This document shows positions 10,463 through 61,911 of a stretch of 64,000 nt of DNA, one piece after another (the first letter of the stretch is position 1; each line of letters starts with the position of its first letter). The position numbers were made by a program, and so were the translations under genes. The notes under the pieces are model-generated. The model made no database searches. It saw only the letters and a program-made list of their open reading frames with translations, and had not been told where the DNA came from. The DNA is from a virus (taxonomy: Duplodnaviria > Caudoviricetes). Location of the stretch: the IMG/VR virus record IMGVR_UViG_3300021399_000003, positions 64,001-128,000 of that record. One strand, 5' to 3'.

Positions 10463-10606
10463 GTGCGCCATCACGGATTTGAACCGTGGACTCCTTGATT
10501 AATGGTGGAGACCGCCAGAATTGCACTGGCACTATCAGTTTGTTCCTTTACTTCAATGCGCTTGCAGTCCCCAAGTCAAGTGCTCTACCAACTGAGCTAA
10601 TGGCGC
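10461..10606 (-). tRNA. tRNA-Lys(TTT) split in the anticodon by a 70-nt tRNA-like insert (10503-10572)
   Basis: exon1 GCGCCATTAGCTCAGTTGGTAGAGCACTTGACTT + exon2 TTAATCAAGGAGTCCACGGTTCAAATCCGTGATGGCGCA gives canonical cloverleaf. Confidence 0.88.
10503..10572 (-). ncRNA. nested tRNA-like element, Ala/tmRNA-TLD-like
   Basis: GGGGACT/GGTCTCC acceptor with G3:U70, A73, CCA; T arm GCCAG-TGCAATT-CTGGC. Confidence 0.75.
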
Positions 10607-11430: not shown

Positions 11431-11444
11431 AAAATCCTTTCATC

Positions 11445-11556
11445 TAGGCACATTATTTTCTATTGCCCTACCTGCTGGGCGACATGCTAAATTTAGCACA
11501 ATCGGACTCGAACCGATGACTCATAGATTACCTATGTAAGTTGCTGTGTGCGCCTA
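11445..11556 (-). ncRNA. Y RNA (YrlA-like), circularly permuted tRNA domain
   Basis: terminal stem AGGCGCA/TGTGCCT with ACAGCAA; T arm, loop-closed acceptor stem, then D arm. Confidence 0.7.
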
Positions 11557-11636
11557 TTTATTATAATTTTAATTCTGGTTTCTTATTAAATTTGGCTTGC
11601 GGTTCTGCGATTGGTTTTTTAATGAAAATCCAATAG

Positions 11637-13812: not shown

Positions 13813-14396
13813 ATACCCTATTTAATAAAACCGTTGCGGCCTTCGCCGTACTTGTATTATCCTTCTAACATATTCAACCACGTTGGAGATGAAGGCTGAG
13901 CCACGGGTAGCAATTCCGGACTTCTTCACCCCGTCTTTCGACCAACAACGGAGAGACTGTTTACTCTCAAATTTCACCTAAACCATTCAGCACAATAATA
14001 TCTAATCAAATCTATTAGATTCATTGTCGTTTTGGGCTACTTTTTCTGTGAACCTCGCTTATATCCTATTTCTAGGTTTCAACGACATCAAGCGTCTTGT
14101 TGGCATTTCCAAGGTTTGCGGTGGTAGCCAGCCACATCTAAAACGCCTAACTTGGATTCAGGTCACGCTTTTAACGCTCACCTTCTATTGCGACGCCGCG
14201 AGGAGCCAAGTTTTTGTTAGCGGATAACCAAGCACCTATCCTTAACATTAGGAGTTTCTCCATATCGCTAGTCATTACTGATTTCGCGGCCTTGGCTTGA
14301 AAGTATCCCATCAAGTTTGGGGCTGTTATTCAGATAGTCCAAGCAGAGTGGTTAGCTCTTCTTCACTTGGTTCAACCATTTTATTAAATAGGGTAT
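13813..14396 (-). ncRNA. large structured ncRNA, ROOL-sized candidate
   Basis: 584-nt ORF-free region closed by perfect 18-bp terminal helix; dedicated promoter at 14424-14452. Confidence 0.5.
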
Positions 14397-16084: not shown

Positions 16085-16218
16085 TGGTGCCCCAGACGGG
16101 ACTTGAACCCGTACACCCTCACGGATAGCGGATTTTGGTCGTGGGAAGGAGTGCTGCTCTCCAACAAGCCACTGGGCCCACGTAAGTCCGCTGCGTCTGC
16201 CAATTCCGCCACCAGGGC
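16085..16218 (-). tRNA. tRNA-Leu(TAA) split in the anticodon by a 47-nt minihelix-like insert (16136-16182)
   Basis: GCGGA-CTTA|AAA-TCCGC restored on removal; Leu D loop GGAATTGGCAGAC, long variable arm, ACCA. Confidence 0.88.
16136..16182 (-). ncRNA. nested tRNA minihelix-like element
   Basis: CGTGGG/CCCACG-ACCA; T arm GGAG-AGCAGCA-CTCC. Confidence 0.7.
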
Positions 16219-16938
16219 ATAAAAACCTGATGTAACCCTCACGCAGCTAGATGGTTACTTTGAATAGTACTTTAAGGTATACTGCTAATATATAGGCTAT
16301 CAGGCGTAGCCTTAACAAGTAAATGTGTGGTTGTTCGATATTTGCTCCTTTTATTTCTGAACCACACTAAGAAGCCCTTAAATCGACACTCCTCGAACAG
16401 GGTGCGTCCGCGACCATCACGCCGCTATGCATTGTTAACAATGGGCGATTTTTATCGTTGTTCGCCGCAACTACCTAGGTAATAAGTCTCCTAGTGGTGC
16501 GCTTCTTTGAGAGGCGTAAGGAGAACATTTGCGGTGGCGCCTCACAATTAACCGCAATTTCCCTTATAAAGCCCAGTGGGTGGACTCTGGCGCCGAAGTT
16601 TTATTTTCTAGTTTGTGGTGAACTTCAAACCCTTTATAAACTCCATTAATTGCTTCATACTAGAAAAGTAATTAATTTCATCGTTTCATAATCATCTTGT
16701 GATTATGCCGAATACGCTTTCACGTATTCTAAAACTCCTTGTACGCTTGGTACATGAGATAGCGGTGACGCCCTTCAAAAGTACTGGCCGCAATTTTTCG
16801 TTCAGCGTCTAATCCTGCCACTCATCAAGCTTTTCAGCTTGCTCACGGCGAGTCCAAGAAGAAGAAAATACAGTACGAGAAGTCTTACGCACAACTATCA
16901 TTCCTTTCCTTGTTTCTATAAATATTATATCACAATTT

Positions 16939-20323: not shown

Positions 20324-20965
20324 TTATGTGCTATTTTTATCGTATATCATATATTCCCATTTATATCCGCCAGTAGTCTTACGTTTTCCATTACATACTT
20401 CTTGAATATGATTACTGCGGCAACCAATAGCTTCTGCTGCCTCTCGTGCCGAAGAATACACTTTAATTAATGTACCATCTTTTAATAACTGTTTAACAGG
20501 TTTACTATACAAATGTTGCATAGTTTGATAACCTCTTAATATCCGTTCTTGTGATGGAATATCTTTTAAAGCTTGAGATACTGTTGTATCACAATATCCA
20601 GTAATTTCTTTAATAGATTTTTTACTATATCCCTCATTCCATAAATTAATAATTAATTCATAGCTGGCATAAGGTTTTCCATCGCCGCCAATAGTAGCAT
20701 TATAACCATTAGAAAATGAATTATAACTTTCAATCCAAAAACGTTCTTTTTCATCTAGTTCTTCCAAAGTGCATTCTTCTACTATTTCAATATGAAAATT
20801 TTCAATTCCATATTTATTCATGGCAGAATATAATGGACGATGTTCTTTTGATGACCGTTTTGCGTCTTTACAATGTTCTTTCCAACGACGTTCAATAGTA
20901 AAAGCAGTTTTGCCAATATAAATTTTTCCATTAATATCATTAATAATTTTATAAATGTATGGCAT
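20324..20965 (-). CDS. GIY-YIG homing endonuclease with NUMOD1-like C-terminus
   Basis: YIYKI..YIGKT, RWKEH, GYN..GG, GGYKWEY. Confidence 0.87.
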   Translation of the reverse strand: MPYIYKIINDINGKIYIGKTAFTIERRWKEHCKDAKRSSKEHRPLYSAMNKYGIENFHIEIVEECTLEELDEKERFWIESYNSFSNGYNATIGGDGKPYASYELIINLWNEGYSKKSIKEITGYCDTTVSQALKDIPSQERILRGYQTMQHLYSKPVKQLLKDGTLIKVYSSAREAAEAIGCRSNHIQEVCNGKRKTTGGYKWEYMIYDKNST

Positions 20966-21561: not shown

Positions 21562-22042
21562 TTATTTGGTGAGTTCCCTCACCTTGTATAATAATTATAT
21601 CAAAATTTTTAATAAAAGTCAAGTATTTTCTTCAGCTAAAATGTCCTTAATTTCCTCATCACACATACAATCTTCACATTCATATACTTTTACGGTATTT
21701 ACATTAGTTTTTCCGTAGTAGTCAACTATTCTATCTACCGCAGCGCCTAACGTTGTTCCTATAGTAAATCCGCCCTCTGTATGACAAGTTTTATCAATTT
21801 CATCCCAAAATTCAATTATATAACGCACTATCATAATATTTTCTCCCATATAGTATAAATACTATTATCGTCATATTGATTATTAGAAAATTGTTTAATC
21901 AGATCAATTGAAGTCATATGTAAAAGTCCATCTGAAGTTTTCCATGAAACCATTTTATTCTGCATTTTATTCTTATCTGCGGCGATAAGAATAATAAAAT
22001 CTTTAATTGTTATTTTTTCTAGTCCGCGTACTTTATTCCATC

Positions 22043-22693
22043 TCATACAAACTCTTTCATATCTTCCCATTTAATTTTTACAATTATACGTTCGCCGCGA
22101 CGATTGCGCAATTCAATAGCAGGTCTACATACTACTCCTTCCATTTCACGTTCCTCTTCCGCGATTACAGAATTAGGATGGGTCTTTACATATTCTTCTG
22201 CTGCGTATAAGGAACCAGTGCCTACAATAGGCACAGCCTTAATTCCGAACATTTTTGCAGTTGTTTCTACCCATTCGCGCTCCTGATAGTTATCGCCAAT
22301 AAGCACATCAAAGAGAATAAAATCTACACCGTTGGGAATATACTTTCCACCGCCCTTCTGAATCTTGCGGCCATAACCTTCACCGAAAAGAATAACTTCC
22401 TTTTCGCCAAAAACCTGTTCAAAAATCTGAGCATTAACCTCACCGCCGAACAACTCATTCAAACGAGTAACAAGTTCTGCGGGAATAGCAGCATTATCGG
22501 TGCGACCACCAAAGGTAACAGTATGGCCATCCCAACATACGCGAATGTTAGTGCCATCAACCTTCTCAGTCCAAATCCAGCAATTATCGCTGAGATATTC
22601 TATAGTTGGGTCACGAAATACTCCCGGAAGTAGCTTTTTAGTTCCAGTTGTGTCTCTTTGATAGAGAGTATCAATCTTTTCATACTTTCTCAT
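22043..22693 (-). CDS. ATP-dependent RNA ligase (Rnl2-like)
   Basis: TEKVDGTN motif I, FGEGYG, FDV, EGVV, KIK. Confidence 0.82.
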   Translation of the reverse strand: MRKYEKIDTLYQRDTTGTKKLLPGVFRDPTIEYLSDNCWIWTEKVDGTNIRVCWDGHTVTFGGRTDNAAIPAELVTRLNELFGGEVNAQIFEQVFGEKEVILFGEGYGRKIQKGGGKYIPNGVDFILFDVLIGDNYQEREWVETTAKMFGIKAVPIVGTGSLYAAEEYVKTHPNSVIAEEEREMEGVVCRPAIELRNRRGERIIVKIKWEDMKEFV

Positions 22694-22755
22694 GTGTTTT
22701 GTTCCTTTCTACTTACTATAATAATTATAGCAAAAATTATATAGAAAGTCAAATA

Positions 22756-23109
22756 TTAAATTTCCTTATATCCATAATGAGTAAGAAGTTGCCGCATATT
22801 TGCGACACCAACAGGATTCATGCTATGGATATGAAAACCTACAAGTGGAATTTGATTTTCTACAATATATTTACAAATATCATAACCTGATTTAGCAAGA
22901 GTGTCATCTATTTCATGCCCTTCACCCAAATCATGGTCAAGGTCAATAATTATATTATAAAACTCCTCATTATAATAGTTTAGAAAGAAAATTGCTTCTT
23001 CTACGCTACGGCAAGTAATAGGAATCCATTCCATATGGGTATAGTTACCCAACGTCTTGAAGAAAGTATCATCTTCACGAATATCATCTACATAGATATA
23101 AATATTCAT
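22756..23109 (-). CDS. cyclic-phosphate-processing receiver-domain protein
   Basis: YVDDIR, DLDHDLG, SGYD, IHSMNPVG. Confidence 0.75.
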   Translation of the reverse strand: MNIYIYVDDIREDDTFFKTLGNYTHMEWIPITCRSVEEAIFFLNYYNEEFYNIIIDLDHDLGEGHEIDDTLAKSGYDICKYIVENQIPLVGFHIHSMNPVGVANMRQLLTHYGYKEI

Positions 23110-23179
23110 ATCTCTCACCCTTTCTATAATTATTATACTATAATTTCTATATTTAGTCAAGAAAAAAGAAGATGAACTT

Positions 23180-23965
23180 TCATTCATCTTCTTCTTTCAC
23201 TAAATATTCATCACTAAATAACATTTCAAGAGTAATATTATCGCGTTCCCAGTATGGAATGCGAACGAGAGGAATGTTGTGGGAAAGGGCGTATTGATTT
23301 TTTTCTTTATCGCGTTGCTGCTGCTCTTTTAATCCATTTCGTGCCTGCCATTTGCCCCATGTTTCTTGATAATGTTGAATACCATCAAATTCAATTAAAC
23401 GGATTAATTCATTATTTTTATTATATATTCCAAAGTCATACCAATAAGGATGTTTATTTTTTCCTAGCAAATTATCAAATCGTACTTCAGGTTTAAAATT
23501 GATATTATTTTCTTTTAAAATTTTTGTTATATTAACTGCTCCAACTGATTTTTCTCTTTTTATACACCCACAAGAAATCGTATGTAAACTACGTAAATTA
23601 TTAGCATCTACATCGCATTCATTTCCGCAAGCACATTTACAATGCCATATGGCATTTTGACTTATGTTACTTCCAGTTTTATAAAGAGCAGTTAAATATC
23701 CAAATGTTTGACCAGTAATATCTTTAGTTAATTTATCACCTATAATTTTACTTTTCATACATCCACAACTGGTATCTCTTTGTAAATTACGAAAATTCTT
23801 TACACAATAATTTCCGCAATGTTTACATAAACAATTCCAAAAGGTATGAGTACCTTTGTTGGGAGCTCGTCCTATTATTTTAAAATTCTCATCTTCATAT
23901 CCAGTTCTATCTTTAAGTGTATTACCTGCTACACCATTAAACCACTGTAATTCTTCATATAACAT
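23180..23965 (-). CDS. putative homing endonuclease (Cys-rich repeats + Vsr/DUF559-like nuclease)
   Basis: CxC.CG/SCGC repeats, YDF, IEFDGIQH, RD..K, RIPYW. Confidence 0.7.
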   Translation of the reverse strand: MLYEELQWFNGVAGNTLKDRTGYEDENFKIIGRAPNKGTHTFWNCLCKHCGNYCVKNFRNLQRDTSCGCMKSKIIGDKLTKDITGQTFGYLTALYKTGSNISQNAIWHCKCACGNECDVDANNLRSLHTISCGCIKREKSVGAVNITKILKENNINFKPEVRFDNLLGKNKHPYWYDFGIYNKNNELIRLIEFDGIQHYQETWGKWQARNGLKEQQQRDKEKNQYALSHNIPLVRIPYWERDNITLEMLFSDEYLVKEEDE

Positions 23966-23989
23966 AACATCACCTAAAAGAGCCCGTTC

Positions 23990-25522
23990 TTAATGAATGG
24001 GCTCATATCTCTTACTGTTCAGCTTTTCATACATCATGTCCTCAGCCTTCTTGCCAGACATAATCATTTCAAAGATTACAGGAGAGCAACCAGAAACAGT
24101 AGTTACGTCAGGGCCAACGTCCAAAACTGTATTATTACGTGCGTTTACATTCCAAAAAACAAGAGAAGGCATCTTGTATCCAGAATGGCTCCACTTATCA
24201 CGCATCTTATCCATAAAGGTTTGTACCTGATTGGCACTGTAGCCATTATTTCTATTCCAAGAGGAATATCCCTGTGCGGAATCAATTTCTTGGTCACTGA
24301 TAATGACAATGGTTTCAGGCATATCTGCCTGACGCAGATGATTCCGAACAGCAGTATTCAGCACAAGGTCAAATACAGACTGTAGATTGGTGTTTTCGCA
24401 AAGATTCGTCTTTACGATACGGTCAACCTTGTCGCAGAAGTCCACGCCGCGAGTCTCAACAAACTTCGCCGTGCGGCTGAAGCTGATGTAAGAGTTTGCG
24501 AAAGGTCCCTTATTACGCTCTGCGGCATAAAGAGCAAGAGAGACTGCGACATCAATAGGAGCAACGCTACCAGCACCACTCGTCATACTTCCGCTTGTAT
24601 CGGCGACAACAAGGGCATTCAGGGACATGCCATGGAAGTAATCAGTTAGATTCTCCCAATACTTGTTAATCATCAGGCGGTCGGTATTGTCAAGGGCAAT
24701 ATTACTGCCACGGCCATACCAGCTATAGTCCGAACCCATAAGCTTAATGGCCTTAGCAACCACATCATAAGGATATAGTGCGGCTGCATTAACCTTGGTA
24801 GAGGTATCCTTGGCAAACGCTTCATACTTCGCCTTGATTAGATCACGACGAGCAAAAGCGTTCTTATAAATCAGGCCAGCACGAGAAGGAATCTTGTCAA
24901 ATTCAATCTCATTCCAGCGATTTGTGGACATAAGGCGCTCCAGTACACGAATACGCTCACGAAGGTTAGAAAGCAGTACACGATACTGACGAGAGGTTAG
25001 ACCCATAGTATGGGCAGTTAGACGTCCATAACGCTTAGTCTTGGCAGAAGAAGCGTTCTCGGAAGCTGCCCACTTACCAGCAAGGGAAATAGCACCCTTG
25101 GTCTTGTAGTCAAGGGCAAGCTGCTTACCAAGAGCATATAGAGCCTCATGCTCACAGGAAGTCCCTACGAGAGCATATAGGTCGTCCCAGCGGCCATACT
25201 CAGCAATCTGGTCAAGATTGCGAAGTACAGCATCACGATCTACATCAGCAAGCCAATGTAGGCATACACGGAAAAATCTTCTTTCCCCTTGGCCGCCGCG
25301 CACGTCCCGCTCGTAGAATAGGCACTTTAGGGCATATACAGGGTTCTCCTGATAGGCTTCCTTAAAAAGCAGAATACAATCACTTTCGGTGCGCTGACGA
25401 TAAGCTGCGCCGAAAGAGAAGAGGTCATATAGCTTAGAGCTAGTAGTGGTTCGCGCAACAGCATGATTTTCGGTATACTTATAAGTATTTTGAGAAGCCA
25501 TAGCATTGTAAAGACGATTCAT
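23990..25522 (-). CDS. DUF2828 / Ro60(TROVE)-like protein with vWA domain
   Basis: RDVRGGQGER, YGRWDDL, MIDAS DTSGSM, ISDQE, FWNV. Confidence 0.8.
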   Translation of the reverse strand: MNRLYNAMASQNTYKYTENHAVARTTTSSKLYDLFSFGAAYRQRTESDCILLFKEAYQENPVYALKCLFYERDVRGGQGERRFFRVCLHWLADVDRDAVLRNLDQIAEYGRWDDLYALVGTSCEHEALYALGKQLALDYKTKGAISLAGKWAASENASSAKTKRYGRLTAHTMGLTSRQYRVLLSNLRERIRVLERLMSTNRWNEIEFDKIPSRAGLIYKNAFARRDLIKAKYEAFAKDTSTKVNAAALYPYDVVAKAIKLMGSDYSWYGRGSNIALDNTDRLMINKYWENLTDYFHGMSLNALVVADTSGSMTSGAGSVAPIDVAVSLALYAAERNKGPFANSYISFSRTAKFVETRGVDFCDKVDRIVKTNLCENTNLQSVFDLVLNTAVRNHLRQADMPETIVIISDQEIDSAQGYSSWNRNNGYSANQVQTFMDKMRDKWSHSGYKMPSLVFWNVNARNNTVLDVGPDVTTVSGCSPVIFEMIMSGKKAEDMMYEKLNSKRYEPIH

Positions 25523-26142
25523 ATTTTATTTCTCCTTTTCATTTGGTCAGCCCTGGACTAGGGCTCGTTTCTTTCTTACAATATTATTATAGCAGAATTT
25601 TTAGTAAAAGTCAAATAATTTTTCTTAAATGAAATCGCCAAATTTTTCTCTTTTGCTTTATTTCATTACGCTTGGATTTTTCAGTAAGATGAAAAAATTG
25701 AGCTTGCAATTCATTGAATTCTTGCAGCAACTCAGTATGCGCTTGCTGTAATTCATTAAATTTTTCTTTATATTCTAATCCAAACATTTATTGCTCCTTT
25801 GGTCCAATATAGGTATCCCAAATATATTGTAAAACTTTTTGCTCCGCTCCCTTACAGCCATAATTCATACGATAAATGACATCTACTGGTGCTTTTCCAA
25901 AGAAAACGCGATAAGCATAATTGTATACGTCTTTCATCGCATCATATAAATTATCATCTTGAATAAACATAATTACTCCTTAGTAAGTTGTGTGGGAGAA
26001 ATTGAAAACATTTCATGCGTTCTCGTGTCCTCTACATAACAAATCATTCCTTTTTCAGTTAAATTAATATCTAATATTTTTCCGCCCTTCATGAATCCGT
26101 CATACCAAAATTTAATTGAATCAAACTTTTTAATATCTTCCA

Positions 26143-27250: not shown

Positions 27251-27404
27251 TAGTCGGGAACCTGGGACTCGAACCCAGGACACACGGCTTATTGGTCATG
27301 AAGGATAGATTTGAACTATCATTATCTTCTGCTAGACAGAAGTAGTTTTCCAATTTAACTTACTTCATGAAGGCCGCTGCTCTGACCTACTGAGCTAGTT
27401 CCCG
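27251..27404 (-). tRNA. tRNA-Ile(TAT) split in the anticodon by a 77-nt full tRNA (27293-27369)
   Basis: GCGGC-CTT|ATAA-GCCGT restored on removal; canonical D and T arms. Confidence 0.87.
27293..27369 (-). tRNA. nested cloverleaf with CTA (amber) anticodon
   Basis: CATGAAG/CTTCATG-ACCA; D arm AGTT/AACT; CTTCT-GTCTAGC-AGAAG; GATAG-TTCAAAT-CTATC. Confidence 0.72.
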
Positions 27405-61026: not shown

Positions 61027-61911
61027 CTAATGCGCGGCTTCATCATATTGATGAAGTTCCACTACCTCCTTCCAAAGTTTTTCACCCATACGAGAACGCC
61101 AAGTATCCTGACACTTCTGGTCAGTATAGGGTATCATATGGTATGCTACAAGTTGTGCTACGTGAGCATTATACCCCATAGTAAGAGCCATATAACAAGA
61201 TACATTTGCATGATTAGGATAATGAAGTTCCCTGTAATCATCTTTTCCCCATCTGGTAGCAGTCCAAACCTTGCCATAATCATGAATATAGGCTGCGCGC
61301 ACAATATTGGCATTGGATAGCCCCAACAGCGCTATGTCTCCGCAAGCATGGCAATGCTCCTGTAGTGTAAGAGAATGATGGCTATTGCCCTGTTCTCCAT
61401 ATTCTTTTACAAGATGAGCATAAGAACGACGATAATAATCCCTATCATATTCTGGCGCGTAATCATACCGGATAAGAACCTTATTCCATCCTTCGCCTTC
61501 GCACGGCATCTCAAATTGCCGCAGCATGCGGTCAATAACATACGAAGGGACTACTCGTTCACGAGCACCATTGCGCTCATGGCATACATCAATAGGAGTA
61601 GCCATGACTACACAATAATAATGAATATCAGGGAACATCTTCTTCAAAGACTTCACGAGATTCATACGACGACGAGAAGAGAGATTAGTAGCATCATAGA
61701 AAACAGTATGATTAGTTTCTAACGCAGCGCTAGTGCGCTGGAACATAATGTTAAAAATGCGAGCGTTGTCTTCTTGGACCGAAGCATCTCCATATAATTC
61801 TTCTCTAATAGAGTCACTAGATACAATTACATCATAGGGCTTTGCCTTTTTGCGTGCCCAATAACTTTTCCCACTGCCAGGAAGACCACAAAGCATGTAA
61901 AAAATAGTCAT
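61027..61911 (-). CDS. polynucleotide kinase (AAA_33) + HD domain
   Basis: GLPGSGKS, SSDSIR, DATNL, RN..RER, HDYGK. Confidence 0.85.
   Translation of the reverse strand: MTIFYMLCGLPGSGKSYWARKKAKPYDVIVSSDSIREELYGDASVQEDNARIFNIMFQRTSAALETNHTVFYDATNLSSRRRMNLVKSLKKMFPDIHYYCVVMATPIDVCHERNGARERVVPSYVIDRMLRQFEMPCEGEGWNKVLIRYDYAPEYDRDYYRRSYAHLVKEYGEQGNSHHSLTLQEHCHACGDIALLGLSNANIVRAAYIHDYGKVWTATRWGKDDYRELHYPNHANVSCYMALTMGYNAHVAQLVAYHMIPYTDQKCQDTWRSRMGEKLWKEVVELHQYDEAAH

What the first reader, a model, noticed from the sequence alone, without database searches (positions are those of the whole stretch)
22043..25522. RNA-repair gene cluster embedded in the tRNA island
Seen: an Rnl2-like ligase, a cyclic-phosphate-processing receiver-domain protein and a Ro60-like DUF2828 gene lie together between the nested tRNAs. 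DUF2828 has visibly higher GC and host-like codon use, suggesting high expression. Inference: these are the healing, sealing and chaperone components for the split tRNAs and for repairing host anticodon-nuclease damage.
Basis: partly seen in the sequence, partly recalled or inferred. Interest (0 to 1): 0.75.

Follow-up and report, generated by a model that had tools for sequence, protein, structure and literature searches.

The report
Phage Ro60-like RNA repair gene cluster
An uncultured 169-kb phage keeps three RNA-mending genes (a Ro60-shaped RNA-binding protein, a putative phosphate-trimming enzyme and a stripped-down RNA ligase) inside its tRNA gene island; the genes are real and conserved, the kind of cluster is already described, and the idea that it re-joins the phage's split tRNAs remains possible but unproven.

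Summary
On the minus strand of 22043-25522 lie an Rnl2-type RNA ligase (216 aa), a cREC receiver-domain protein, and a DUF2828/DUF7788 protein whose model matches Ro60 over its full length.

- **Ligase:** it has only the nucleotidyltransferase domain. All catalytic motifs are invariant, and about 216 aa is the native length of a very large family.
- **Transcription:** each of the three genes has its own exact TTGACT-N17-TATAAT promoter.
- **Composition:** DUF2828 is GC-rich (0.46 against about 0.30 in its neighbours), and its orthologues share this. "Host-like codon use" could not be tested.
- **Wider context:** a YrlA-like permuted tRNA mimic (11439-11561) travels with DUF2828. A separate kinase-HD protein and an Rnl1 ligase lie 36-45 kb away.

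The best reading is a phage counterpart of the bacterial rsr-yrlA-rtcBA tRNA repair module. The cREC-ligase linkage and phage Ro60-like proteins were already described by Iyer et al. 2021.

The link to the three tRNAs split by CCA-ended tRNA-shaped inserts is not refuted, since every insert-bearing phage I examined has such a ligase. It is also not specific, since the same ligase family occurs in phages without inserts. Earlier notes of this scan raise the same splicing idea for at least 35 other genomes.

The parts
23990..25522 (-). DUF2828/DUF7788 protein, 510 aa: a Ro60-like helical ring plus a vWA domain with an intact MIDAS motif
   Evidence: Pfam DUF7788 127 bits and DUF2828 95.8 bits; PHROG 850 'RNA-binding protein' E 1.7e-118. 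AF2 model pLDDT 82, pTM 0.84. The top 12 Foldseek PDB hits are all Ro60/TROVE/Rsr, including Thermus phage phiLo Ro60, E 1e-7 to 9e-5, TM about 0.5. D308, S310, S312, T378 and D410 are invariant in 34 homologues.
25586..25614 (-). Promoter-like site TTGACT-N17-TATAAT in front of DUF2828, followed by a 5'-UTR hairpin and a ribosome-binding site
23180..23965 (-). 261-aa homing-endonuclease-like ORF inserted between DUF2828 and cREC; an optional, mobile gene
   Evidence: PHROG 559, 374 and 9084 (HNH / homing endonuclease), E 7e-30 to 5e-22; no Pfam family. Absent from the same position in L005, L006, L008, L009 and L018. It follows a terminator-like hairpin at the DUF2828 stop codon.
22756..23187 (-). 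cREC (cyclic-phosphate-processing receiver) protein; the ORF gives 143 aa, but the likely true start is the ATG at 23109 (117 aa)
   Evidence: PF20274 60.7 bits; 61.6 bits for the 117-aa form. Motifs DD, DxDHD and HSxNPVG are conserved down to 28% identity. A promoter at 23160-23132 and a ribosome-binding site precede the ATG at 23109.
22043..22693 (-). 216-aa ATP-dependent RNA ligase consisting of a nucleotidyltransferase domain only (Rnl2-like fold, no C-terminal domain)
   Evidence: PF09414 60.5 bits. T4 Rnl2 is the nearest PDB sequence and the nearest fold: 1s68, E 2e-10, TM 0.62. K44xDG, FGE105, FD129, EG186 and K206xK208 are invariant. 7901 homologues were found; the 120 best listed are almost all 213-224 aa. 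Scores 25.9 bits against the Rnl2 equivalog cut-off of 197.
22724..22752 (-). Promoter-like site TTGACT-N17-TATAAT in front of the ligase gene
21619..21849 (-). Small ORF (76 aa) of unknown function, kept just downstream of the ligase in most relatives
   Evidence: tblastn 42-62% identity next to the ligase in L002-L005, L008, L010 and L018. No Pfam family and no Atlas lead.
11439..11561 (-). YrlA-like Y RNA (circularly permuted tRNA mimic closed by a stem), the likely RNA partner of DUF2828
   Evidence: Rfam YrlA match below threshold, 34.3 bits, E 3.5e-4, full model length. 13 of 23 pairs show compensatory changes. The covariance model R1 finds full-length hits of 60 bits or more on the DUF2828 strand in about 26 distinct DUF2828 contigs. 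The DUF2828-negative control loci give no full-length hit above 30 bits.
61027..61911 (-). Polynucleotide-kinase-like P-loop kinase fused to a weak HD domain (294 aa); the candidate healing enzyme, outside the cluster
   Evidence: AAA_33 76 bits, HD 18.7 bits (below cut-off), bacterial Pnkp kinase module 57 bits. Same promoter type at 61963-61935. Conserved in G001-G003.
27253..27404 (-). Context: tRNA-Ile(UAU) interrupted between nucleotides 34 and 35 by a 77-nt tRNA(CUA) that ends in ACCA
   Evidence: Deleting the insert restores the uninterrupted allele of L006.
16085..16218 (-). Context: tRNA-Leu(UAA) interrupted in the anticodon by a 47-nt acceptor plus T-arm mini-helix that ends in ACCA
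10463..10606 (-). Context: tRNA-Lys(UUU) interrupted between nucleotides 34 and 35 by a tRNA-like element of about 70 nt that ends in ACCA

Best explanation
The stretch holds a phage RNA-repair and RNA-quality-control module made of three separately promoted genes.

1. DUF2828 is a Ro60-type ring protein with a vWA/MIDAS domain. It most likely forms a ribonucleoprotein with the YrlA-like permuted tRNA mimic encoded 12 kb further along the same tRNA island.
2. cREC is a divergent receiver-fold protein. It is predicted, not shown, to open 2',3'-cyclic phosphate ends.
3. The third gene encodes a 216-aa ATP-dependent RNA ligase that is only an Rnl2-like nucleotidyltransferase domain. By analogy with the isolated T4 Rnl2 N-terminal domain, it probably needs a partner or a pre-organised substrate such as a nicked tRNA to complete sealing.

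With the kinase-HD protein encoded elsewhere under the same promoter type, the set can in principle heal and seal tRNAs cut by host anticodon nucleases. It is a functional counterpart of the bacterial rsr-yrlBA-rtcBA operon, with an ATP-dependent ligase in place of RtcB.

What is shown: gene identities, folds, conserved catalytic residues, conserved synteny, promoters, and the association of DUF2828 with the Y-like RNA. What is inferred: substrates, the cREC activity, any physical complex, and any role in joining the exons of the interrupted tRNAs.
For: - Family and fold assignments.
- Invariant ligase motifs and MIDAS residues, and conserved cREC acidic and histidine motifs.
- The order DUF2828-[optional endonuclease]-cREC-ligase is kept in 11 of the 18 related IMG/VR loci found with the ligase, with DUF2828 57-91% identical, and always among tRNA genes.
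- Three identical consensus promoters, one per gene, and the same type before the kinase-HD gene. There are 21 exact copies in the window against 0.03 expected.
- The Y-like RNA shows covariation and sits near DUF2828 on the same strand in about 26 distinct contigs, with no full-length hit above 30 bits in the DUF2828-negative control loci.
- Literature: cRec-RNA ligase operon linkage and ROT/TROVE proteins in jumbo phages (PMC7824862); YrlA RNAs next to Ro60 in bacteria and phages (PMC4201824); the rsr-yrlBA-rtcBA operon responds to tRNA halves (PMC7790460).
Against: - No biochemical activity is known for this 216-aa ligase family, for cREC or for DUF2828.
- The three genes have separate promoters, and DUF2828 ends in a terminator-like hairpin, so co-transcription is not shown.
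- In other clades the same ligase family stands alone without DUF2828 or cREC nearby.
- DUF2828 usually lacks this ligase within 10 kb, so the triad is specific to one clade.
- A complete classical pair (kinase-HD plus Rnl1) exists elsewhere in the genome. This leaves the need for a second ligase unexplained, as it is for T4 Rnl2.
Confidence: 0.6

Rival explanations
1. The cluster, and above all the 216-aa ligase, is the exon-joining machinery for the tRNAs split by tRNA-shaped inserts. RNase P cuts at the first base of the insert and an endonuclease cuts after its CCA. The still base-paired tRNA halves then carry 3'-OH and 5'-P ends, which the ligase seals, perhaps while held by the Ro60-like protein.
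For: - The cluster lies between interrupted tRNAs.
- The inserts run exactly from an acceptor-stem first base to CCA, and deleting them restores 7-nt anticodon loops and the uninterrupted allele.
- Every insert-bearing genome I examined has a PF09414-type ligase: G000-G003 and G006 have the 216-aa type, G007-G010 have an OB-fold plus NTase type, and all 15 Lak megaphage records match the 216-aa type.
- No relative of this phage's Rnl1 was found in G007-G010 or Lak-C1, so a PF09414 ligase is the common denominator.
- CCA-type inserts make up 11 of 136 tRNAs in loci with the adjacent 216-aa ligase against 7 of 518 without it.
- Lak phage tRNA introns, one of which may itself encode a tRNA, are published without a proposed mechanism (PMC6784885).
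Against: - The 216-aa ligase family also occurs where ARAGORN with introns allowed finds no interrupted tRNA: Streptomyces phage Faust (32 tRNAs), crAss-like cr116_1 (16 tRNAs), Campylobacter phage WX1 (2 tRNAs) and the complete 92.5-kb G004 (4 tRNAs).
- Ligases are near-universal in this phage group whether or not inserts are present, so co-occurrence does not discriminate.
- The enrichment rests on a single clade.
- Inserts are gained and lost among relatives that all keep the cluster.
- This genome also has Rnl1, and by T4 precedent Rnl1 is the enzyme specialised for anticodon-loop breaks.
- No spliced tRNA has been observed.
- cREC would have no role with 3'-OH and 5'-P ends.
Confidence: 0.22
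2. The genes are neighbours but do not work together. DUF2828 with its Y-like RNA acts on its own, either in RNA decay with a host exonuclease as Rsr/Y RNA does with PNPase, or as a tRNA-shaped decoy against anticodon nucleases. The ligase and cREC are independent residents of a general RNA-metabolism neighbourhood around the tRNA island.
For: - Each gene has its own promoter, and DUF2828 has a terminator-like end.
- DUF2828 is found in 694 GenBank phage records, the 216-aa ligase in only 65, with very different taxon lists.
- Most DUF2828 loci have no 216-aa ligase within 10 kb.
- A decoy role for YrlA has been suggested in print (PMC7790460).
Against: - The order of the three genes is kept across the clade down to 57% DUF2828 identity, despite endonuclease insertion.
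- cREC-like genes recur within 10 kb of DUF2828 in about a dozen more distant loci.
- In G007-G010 the RNA ligase lies about 10-15 kb from DUF2828.
- The cREC-ligase linkage is independently reported.
Confidence: 0.13
3. cREC is not an RNA-end healing enzyme. It instead destroys soluble cyclic signals such as cyclic ADP-ribose or 2',3'-cyclic nucleotides that host defence systems use, so the 'healing' step of the reader's model is absent from the cluster.
For: Iyer et al. 2021 propose either cADPr or 2',3'-cyclic nucleotides as cRec substrates and link the domain mainly to NAD/ADP-ribose-processing enzymes. A kinase-HD protein that could do the healing exists elsewhere.
Against: Here and in relatives cREC sits directly beside an RNA ligase, and no NAD-processing gene was seen in the cluster. 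The same paper reports several cRec-RNA ligase operons.
Confidence: 0.05

Closest known systems
cRec-RNA ligase operons and ROT/TROVE proteins of jumbo phages (Iyer, Anantharaman, Krishnan, Burroughs, Aravind 2021, Viruses 13:63, PMC7824862)
   Same: The same Pfam cREC domain sits next to an ATP-dependent RNA ligase in a tRNA-rich phage. A Ro60-related RNA-binding protein is present. The paper proposes the same role, repair of tRNAs attacked by host RNases.
   Different: This is a 169-kb uncultured phage, below the usual jumbo size. All three genes are adjacent. The ligase is NTase-only. A homing-endonuclease-like gene splits the cluster. A Y-like RNA and tRNAs with tRNA-shaped inserts share the island.
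Bacterial rsr-yrlBA-rtcBA RNA repair operon (Chen et al. 2014, PMC4201824; Hughes et al. 2020, PMC7790460)
   Same: A Ro60-type protein, a tRNA-mimicking Y RNA, an RNA ligase and an enzyme acting on 2',3'-cyclic phosphate ends are encoded together and are tied to broken tRNAs.
   Different: No RtcB is present, and an ATP-dependent 3'-OH/5'-P ligase takes its place. cREC is predicted to open cyclic phosphates, whereas RtcA makes them. DUF2828 is a separate Pfam family from TROVE. The Y-like RNA scores only 34 bits against the YrlA cut-off of 69. No RtcR-type regulator was seen; the genes have constitutive-looking consensus promoters.
T4 RNA ligase 2 (Rnl2; PDB 1s68, 2hvq)
   Same: Closest sequence and closest fold. 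Motif I lysine and motifs III, IIIa, IV and V are conserved.
   Different: The helical C-terminal domain of about 90 aa is missing. In T4 Rnl2 that domain is needed for adenylate transfer to the nick (my knowledge of Ho et al. 2004). The protein scores 25.9 bits against the equivalog cut-off of 197. It belongs to a separate, very large family of about 216 aa.
T4 Pnkp plus Rnl1 repair of PrrC-cut tRNA-Lys
   Same: A phage-encoded answer to anticodon nucleases. This genome also carries a kinase and an Rnl1.
   Different: Those two genes lie 36-45 kb from the cluster. The phosphatase module is a weak HD domain, not the HAD type. The cluster's own ligase is not Rnl1.
'Enigmatic' tRNA introns of Lak megaphages (Devoto et al. 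2019, PMC6784885)
   Same: Phage tRNAs interrupted in the anticodon loop, one intron possibly encoding a tRNA. All 15 Lak records also encode a relative of the 216-aa ligase (33% identity).
   Different: The paper proposes no mechanism and mentions no ligase. The Lak-C1 inserts I looked at do not show the clean end at CCA seen here.

Membership tests
Rnl2 family RNA ligase (T4 Rnl2 type) | Nucleotidyltransferase domain with the motif I lysine and motifs III, IIIa, IV and V | tested here: met
   PF09414 60.5 bits. K44xDG, FGE105, FD129, EG186 and K206xK208 are invariant in 27 sequences. The best fold match is 1s68, E 2e-10.
Rnl2 family RNA ligase (T4 Rnl2 type) | Helical C-terminal domain appended to the NTase domain | tested here: not met
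   The protein ends at residue 216. The model shows one domain. The alignment to Rnl2 ends near residue 230 of 334. The homologues listed are almost all about 216 aa.
Rnl2 family RNA ligase (T4 Rnl2 type) | Score above the NCBIfam equivalog cut-off (TIGR02307, 197 bits) | tested here: not met
   25.9 bits.
Rnl2 family RNA ligase (T4 Rnl2 type) | Seals 3'-OH/5'-P nicks in duplex RNA | not testable with these tools
   Needs enzyme assays.
Ro60 / TROVE ribonucleoprotein | Ring of helical repeats followed by a vWA domain with a MIDAS motif | tested here: met
   AF2 model pTM 0.84. Full-length Foldseek matches to Ro60, Rsr and a phage Ro60, probability 1.00. DxSxS, T and D are invariant.
Ro60 / TROVE ribonucleoprotein | Sequence membership in Pfam TROVE (PF05731) | tested here: not met
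   Pfam reports only DUF2828 and DUF7788. phmmer finds no PDB sequence match. The resemblance is at the fold level, 10-16% identity.
Ro60 / TROVE ribonucleoprotein | A cognate Y RNA encoded nearby | tested here: met
   YrlA-like RNA at 11439-11561. The covariance model finds it near DUF2828 in about 26 contigs, with no full-length hit above 30 bits in the control loci. Binding itself was not tested.
cREC (cyclic-phosphate-processing receiver) domain | Pfam PF20274 above cut-off, with the conserved acidic residues of the receiver fold | tested here: met
   60.7 bits against a cut-off of 27. DD, DxDHD and HSxNPVG are conserved down to 28% identity.
cREC (cyclic-phosphate-processing receiver) domain | Gene-neighbourhood link to an RNA ligase or to NAD/ADP-ribose enzymes | tested here: met
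   Directly upstream of the ligase here and in 11 related loci.
cREC (cyclic-phosphate-processing receiver) domain | Phosphoesterase activity on 2',3'-cyclic phosphate | not testable with these tools
   This is a published prediction only (PMC7824862).
rsr-yrlA-rtcBA RNA repair operon | RtcB ligase present | tested here: not met
   No PF01139 match in the 169-kb genome, while the control genomes matched.
T4-type heal-and-seal pathway (Pnkp plus Rnl1) | 5'-kinase, 3'-phosphatase and Rnl1 ligase encoded by the phage | tested here: inconclusive
   The kinase (AAA_33, 76 bits) and Rnl1 (PF09511 62.7 bits, TIGR02308 88 bits) are present but outside the cluster. The phosphatase is only a sub-threshold HD match, 18.7 bits against a cut-off of 22.

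The most novel reading that the evidence does not exclude
The 216-aa domain-minimal ligase is the sealing enzyme of a tRNA splicing route not known in any organism. It may be recruited to its substrate by the Ro60-like protein and its Y-like RNA. In this route ordinary tRNA end-processing enzymes excise a tRNA-shaped, CCA-ended intron from the anticodon, which releases a second functional RNA (here an amber-suppressor tRNA). The phage ligase then rejoins the 3'-OH and 5'-P halves of tRNA-Ile(UAU), tRNA-Leu(UAA) and tRNA-Lys(UUU).
Probability: 0.22. Interest if true: 0.85.

Novelty: new variant of a known kind. Interest (0 to 1): 0.5.

Why it matters
The cluster brings together, in one phage tRNA island, every part of a Ro60/Y-RNA-type repair system built around an ATP-dependent ligase instead of RtcB. 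The ligase is the bare catalytic domain and belongs to a very large family that has not been assayed.

That offers a compact system for three open questions:
- What Ro60-like proteins and Y RNAs do in bacteria and their viruses.
- Whether cREC really processes RNA ends.
- How a ligase without a substrate-binding domain finds its substrate.

If the same ligase also rejoins tRNAs split by tRNA-shaped inserts, it would define a new protein-dependent tRNA splicing pathway in the bacterial world. It would also explain the 'enigmatic' phage tRNA introns reported in 2019. If it does not, the cluster is an ordinary, already predicted counter-measure against host anticodon nucleases.

Tried and rejected
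1. **Truncated ligase.** I considered that the ligase had been cut short by a nearby mobile element and that its C-terminal domain was encoded by the downstream small ORFs. I rejected this. About 216 aa is the native length in the homologues listed, and the 76-aa and 79-aa ORFs match no family.
2. **Recent horizontal transfer as the cause of high GC in DUF2828.** Rejected as the sole cause. Orthologues down to 57% identity keep GC at 0.42-0.49 in loci of 0.33-0.40.
3. **Co-occurrence tests.**
   - GenBank phages carrying the ligase family show no interrupted tRNAs, except Lak.
   - A PF09414 scan of 34 large DUF2828 phage records finds ligases almost everywhere, so it cannot discriminate.
   - The enrichment is significant by Fisher's test but rests on one clade.
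4. **Pfam family scan for Rnl1 in relatives.** One search gave a false negative. A search with this phage's own Rnl1 protein found orthologues in G001-G003. Empty family scans through the genome search should not be trusted without a positive control.
5. **Rfam tRNA scans of whole records.** They missed several interrupted tRNAs that ARAGORN found (against 23), so I switched to ARAGORN on fetched DNA.
6. **Stop-codon recoding.** I tested whether the nested amber-suppressor tRNA signals TAG recoding in the GC-richer region at 136-158 kb of the genome, which has only short ORFs. Reading TAG or TGA as sense does not open long frames there.
7. **Literature.** Searches for 'nested tRNA' with phage, DUF2828 with RNA ligase, and tRNA intron with RNase P, RNA ligase and phage found no paper describing such a mechanism. 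The Burroughs and Aravind 2016 NAR paper was not held.
8. **Megablast of the cluster against GenBank phages:** no match.

Full report
**What is there**

The window is bases 64001-128000 of a 169,459-bp virus record with direct terminal repeats. All of the genome's tRNA genes lie at 8.3-27.9 kb of the window, on the minus strand.

- 23990-25522, 510 aa: Pfam DUF7788 (127 bits) and DUF2828 (95.8 bits); PHROG 850 'RNA-binding protein'.
- 23180-23965, 261 aa: no Pfam family; PHROG HNH and homing-endonuclease families at E 7e-30 to 5e-22.
- 22756-23187, 143 aa: cREC_REC, 60.7 bits.
- 22043-22693, 216 aa: RNA_ligase PF09414, 60.5 bits; PHROG 548 'RNA ligase'.

The fourth gene was overlooked.

**The Ro60-like protein**

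An AlphaFold2 model built on 34 homologues has pLDDT 82 and pTM 0.84. Its twelve best Foldseek matches in the PDB are all Ro60, TROVE or Rsr structures aligned over the full length. They include a Ro60 from Thermus phage phiLo. E-values run from 1e-7 to 9e-5 and TM-scores are about 0.5. After them come vWA/MIDAS domains.

The MIDAS residues (D308, S310, S312, T378, D410) are invariant in the alignment. Sequence searches against the PDB find nothing. 'Ro60-like' is thus true at the fold level but not at the level of the Pfam TROVE family.

**The ligase**

- The nearest PDB sequence is T4 Rnl2, at a weak E of 0.006.
- A confident model (pLDDT 91.5) is closest to the isolated Rnl2 adenylyltransferase domain 1s68 (E 2e-10, TM 0.62). 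Naegleria NgrRnl, TbREL1 and archaeal Rnl3 follow.
- K44xDG, FGE105, FD129, EG186 and K206xK208 are invariant in 27 sequences.
- There is no second domain. The protein scores 25.9 bits against the Rnl2 equivalog cut-off of 197.
- 7901 homologues were found, and the 120 best listed are almost all 213-224 aa. It is therefore a native, domain-minimal ligase and not a fragment.

From my knowledge of T4 Rnl2, the isolated N-terminal domain can adenylylate itself and can seal a pre-adenylylated nick, but it cannot transfer AMP to the nick. This family may therefore need a partner or a pre-organised substrate.

**cREC**

Orthologues and distant relatives down to 28% identity keep the motifs DD, DxDHD and HSxNPVG. 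The annotated N-terminal 26 residues overlap an exact TTGACT-N17-TATAAT promoter, which is followed by a ribosome-binding site and the ATG at 23109. The protein is therefore probably 117 aa. Its proposed activity on cyclic phosphates is a published prediction only (PMC7824862).

**Transcription**

DUF2828, cREC and the ligase each have their own exact TTGACT-N17-TATAAT site (25614-25586, 23160-23132 and 22752-22724). The window holds 21 exact copies on the minus strand against 0.03 expected. One of them stands in front of the kinase-HD gene.

DUF2828 ends in a hairpin followed by a run of T. The endonuclease-like ORF follows that hairpin with only a ribosome-binding site.

**Composition**

DUF2828 has GC 0.459 and GC3 0.434. 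Its neighbours have GC3 of 0.15-0.24, and the genome-wide gene mean is 0.29 with sd 0.14. The ligase is also raised, at GC 0.416.

Orthologues down to 57% identity keep GC at 0.42-0.49. This is an old, maintained property and not a fresh acquisition. GC at codon positions 1 and 2 is raised as well. The host is unknown, so host-like codon use and high expression remain untested.

**Conservation**

A search of IMG/VR with the ligase gave 18 loci. In 11 of them the order DUF2828-[endonuclease]-cREC-ligase is kept, always among tRNA genes. The endonuclease-like ORF is missing from that position in five of them, as expected of a mobile gene.

In the more distant ligase clade (56-63% identity) and in GenBank phages that carry the family, no DUF2828 or cREC is nearby. 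Those GenBank phages are Streptomyces phages, crAss-like cr116_1 and IAS virus, Campylobacter phage WX1 and the Lak megaphages.

DUF2828 is much more widespread: 694 GenBank phage records against 65 for the ligase family.

**The RNA partner**

- Rfam gives a sub-threshold but full-length YrlA match at 11441-11535: 34.3 bits, E 3.5e-4.
- Nine homologues align with compensatory changes in 13 of 23 pairs. These cover the closing stem, the T arm, the acceptor-like hairpin and the D arm.
- A covariance model finds full-length hits of 60 bits or more on the DUF2828 strand in about 26 distinct DUF2828 contigs. The DUF2828-negative control loci give no full-length hit above 30 bits.

Y RNAs next to Ro60 orthologues in bacteria and phages are published (PMC4201824).

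**Other repair genes**

- The genome has no RtcB.
- It has a P-loop polynucleotide-kinase-like protein fused to a weak HD domain at window 61027-61911.
- It has a 380-aa Rnl1 at genome 130833-131975, outside the window.
- Both are conserved in the close relatives G001-G003. An earlier Pfam scan for Rnl1 in those relatives was a false negative.

**The split tRNAs**

ARAGORN with introns allowed, and over-long Rfam tRNA hits, show three interrupted genes. In each, the insert runs from the first base of a 6-7-bp acceptor stem to ACCA. Removing the insert leaves a 7-nt anticodon loop.

| tRNA | Loop junction |
|---|---|
| Lys-UUU | CTT\|TTAA |
| Leu-UAA | CTTA\|AAA |
| Ile-UAU | CTT\|ATAA |

For Ile, the exons joined in this way equal the uninterrupted allele of a relative apart from one substitution. 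Relatives carry either form, so the inserts are gained and lost. The insert in Ile is a complete tRNA with anticodon CUA.

**Does the cluster serve these tRNAs?**

In favour:
- Every insert-bearing genome I examined has a PF09414-type ligase. G000-G003 and G006 have the 216-aa form. G007-G010 have an OB-fold plus NTase form. All 15 Lak records match the 216-aa form.
- No relative of this phage's Rnl1 was found in G007-G010 or Lak-C1.
- Inserts are enriched in loci with the adjacent 216-aa ligase, 11 of 136 tRNAs against 7 of 518.

Against:
- That enrichment rests on one clade.
- Ligases are near-universal in this phage group regardless of inserts.
- Four phages carry the 216-aa family but no interrupted tRNA: Faust (32 tRNAs), cr116_1 (16), WX1 (2) and the complete G004 (4).
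- With the ends expected from RNase P and a cut after CCA (3'-OH and 5'-P), neither cREC nor a kinase would be needed.
- Rnl1 is an equally good or better candidate in this genome.

The test also has little power.

**Comparison with what is known**

The cRec-ligase linkage and ROT/TROVE proteins in large phages were described by Iyer et al. 2021. The bacterial rsr-yrlBA-rtcBA operon is the closest functional parallel. Lak phage tRNA introns, one of which may encode a tRNA, were reported without a mechanism or a ligase link. No paper in the searchable library describes excision by tRNA-processing enzymes followed by ligation. Notes of this scan already raise that idea for at least 35 other genomes.

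**Verdict**

This is a real, conserved, three-gene RNA repair module of a known kind in a new arrangement: an NTase-only ligase, a Ro60-like protein with a Y-like RNA, and cREC. I put 0.6 on the general repair reading and about 0.2 on a dedicated role in splicing the interrupted tRNAs.

Noticed in passing
window 13818-14394 (-): A full-length ROOL RNA (Rfam RF03087, 298 bits) lies in the tRNA island between tRNA-Asn and the next promoter.
   Followed up: no
window 16591-16686 (-) and 16487-16523 (-): A drum RNA (RF02958, 60 bits, above the gathering score) and a sub-threshold abiF RNA match (32.5 bits against 37) sit next to the interrupted tRNA-Leu.
   Followed up: no
window, minus strand: 21 sites from 4644 to 63696: An exact TTGACT-N17-TATAAT promoter motif occurs 21 times on one strand (0.03 expected). 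Many copies share the spacer ending TGNTATAAT. This looks like one temporal class of phage promoters driving the tRNA island, the repair genes and the kinase-HD gene.
   Followed up: partly
window 27293-27369 (-): The insert in tRNA-Ile(UAU) is a complete tRNA with anticodon CUA (amber suppressor; ARAGORN calls it Pyl). Reading TAG or TGA as sense does not open long frames in the ORF-poor, GC-richer region at 136-158 kb of the genome, so its use is unexplained.
   Followed up: partly
genome 136000-158000 (outside the window): A stretch of about 22 kb has GC 0.41-0.45 against about 0.34 elsewhere, and only short ORFs (70-240 aa) on both strands. Some have GC3 up to 0.84.
   Followed up: partly
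L005:8980-9767, L006:8224-9505, L018:8762-9550: These relatives lack the endonuclease-like gene here. A short piece matching cREC residues 1-41 (1-28 in L006) sits right after DUF2828. A gap of about 320 bp in L005 and L018, and about 770 bp in L006, separates it from the main cREC body. This may be the conserved promoter region plus an unrecognised small insert.
   Followed up: no
window 20324-20965 (-) and 23180-23965 (-): Two different homing-endonuclease-type genes (GIY-YIG with NUMOD, and the 261-aa ORF) flank the ligase region. Copies of both appear at other positions in relatives, which points to active endonuclease traffic in the tRNA island.
   Followed up: partly
L055:2533-2649, L060:2187-2306, L097:2185-2303, L104:4100-4219: These 117-130-nt tRNA-like genes have normal acceptor and T arms but a long internal segment containing GTCAGCAAT or GTCTGCAAT and no CCA-ended insert. 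The first form contains the CAGCAA motif that is invariant in the Y-like RNA, so they may be another kind of tRNA-derived RNA.
   Followed up: no
The genome search with PF09511 against the protein search: The Pfam family scan missed Rnl1 orthologues of 60-80% identity that a protein query found. Empty family scans of virus records need a positive control.
   Followed up: yes
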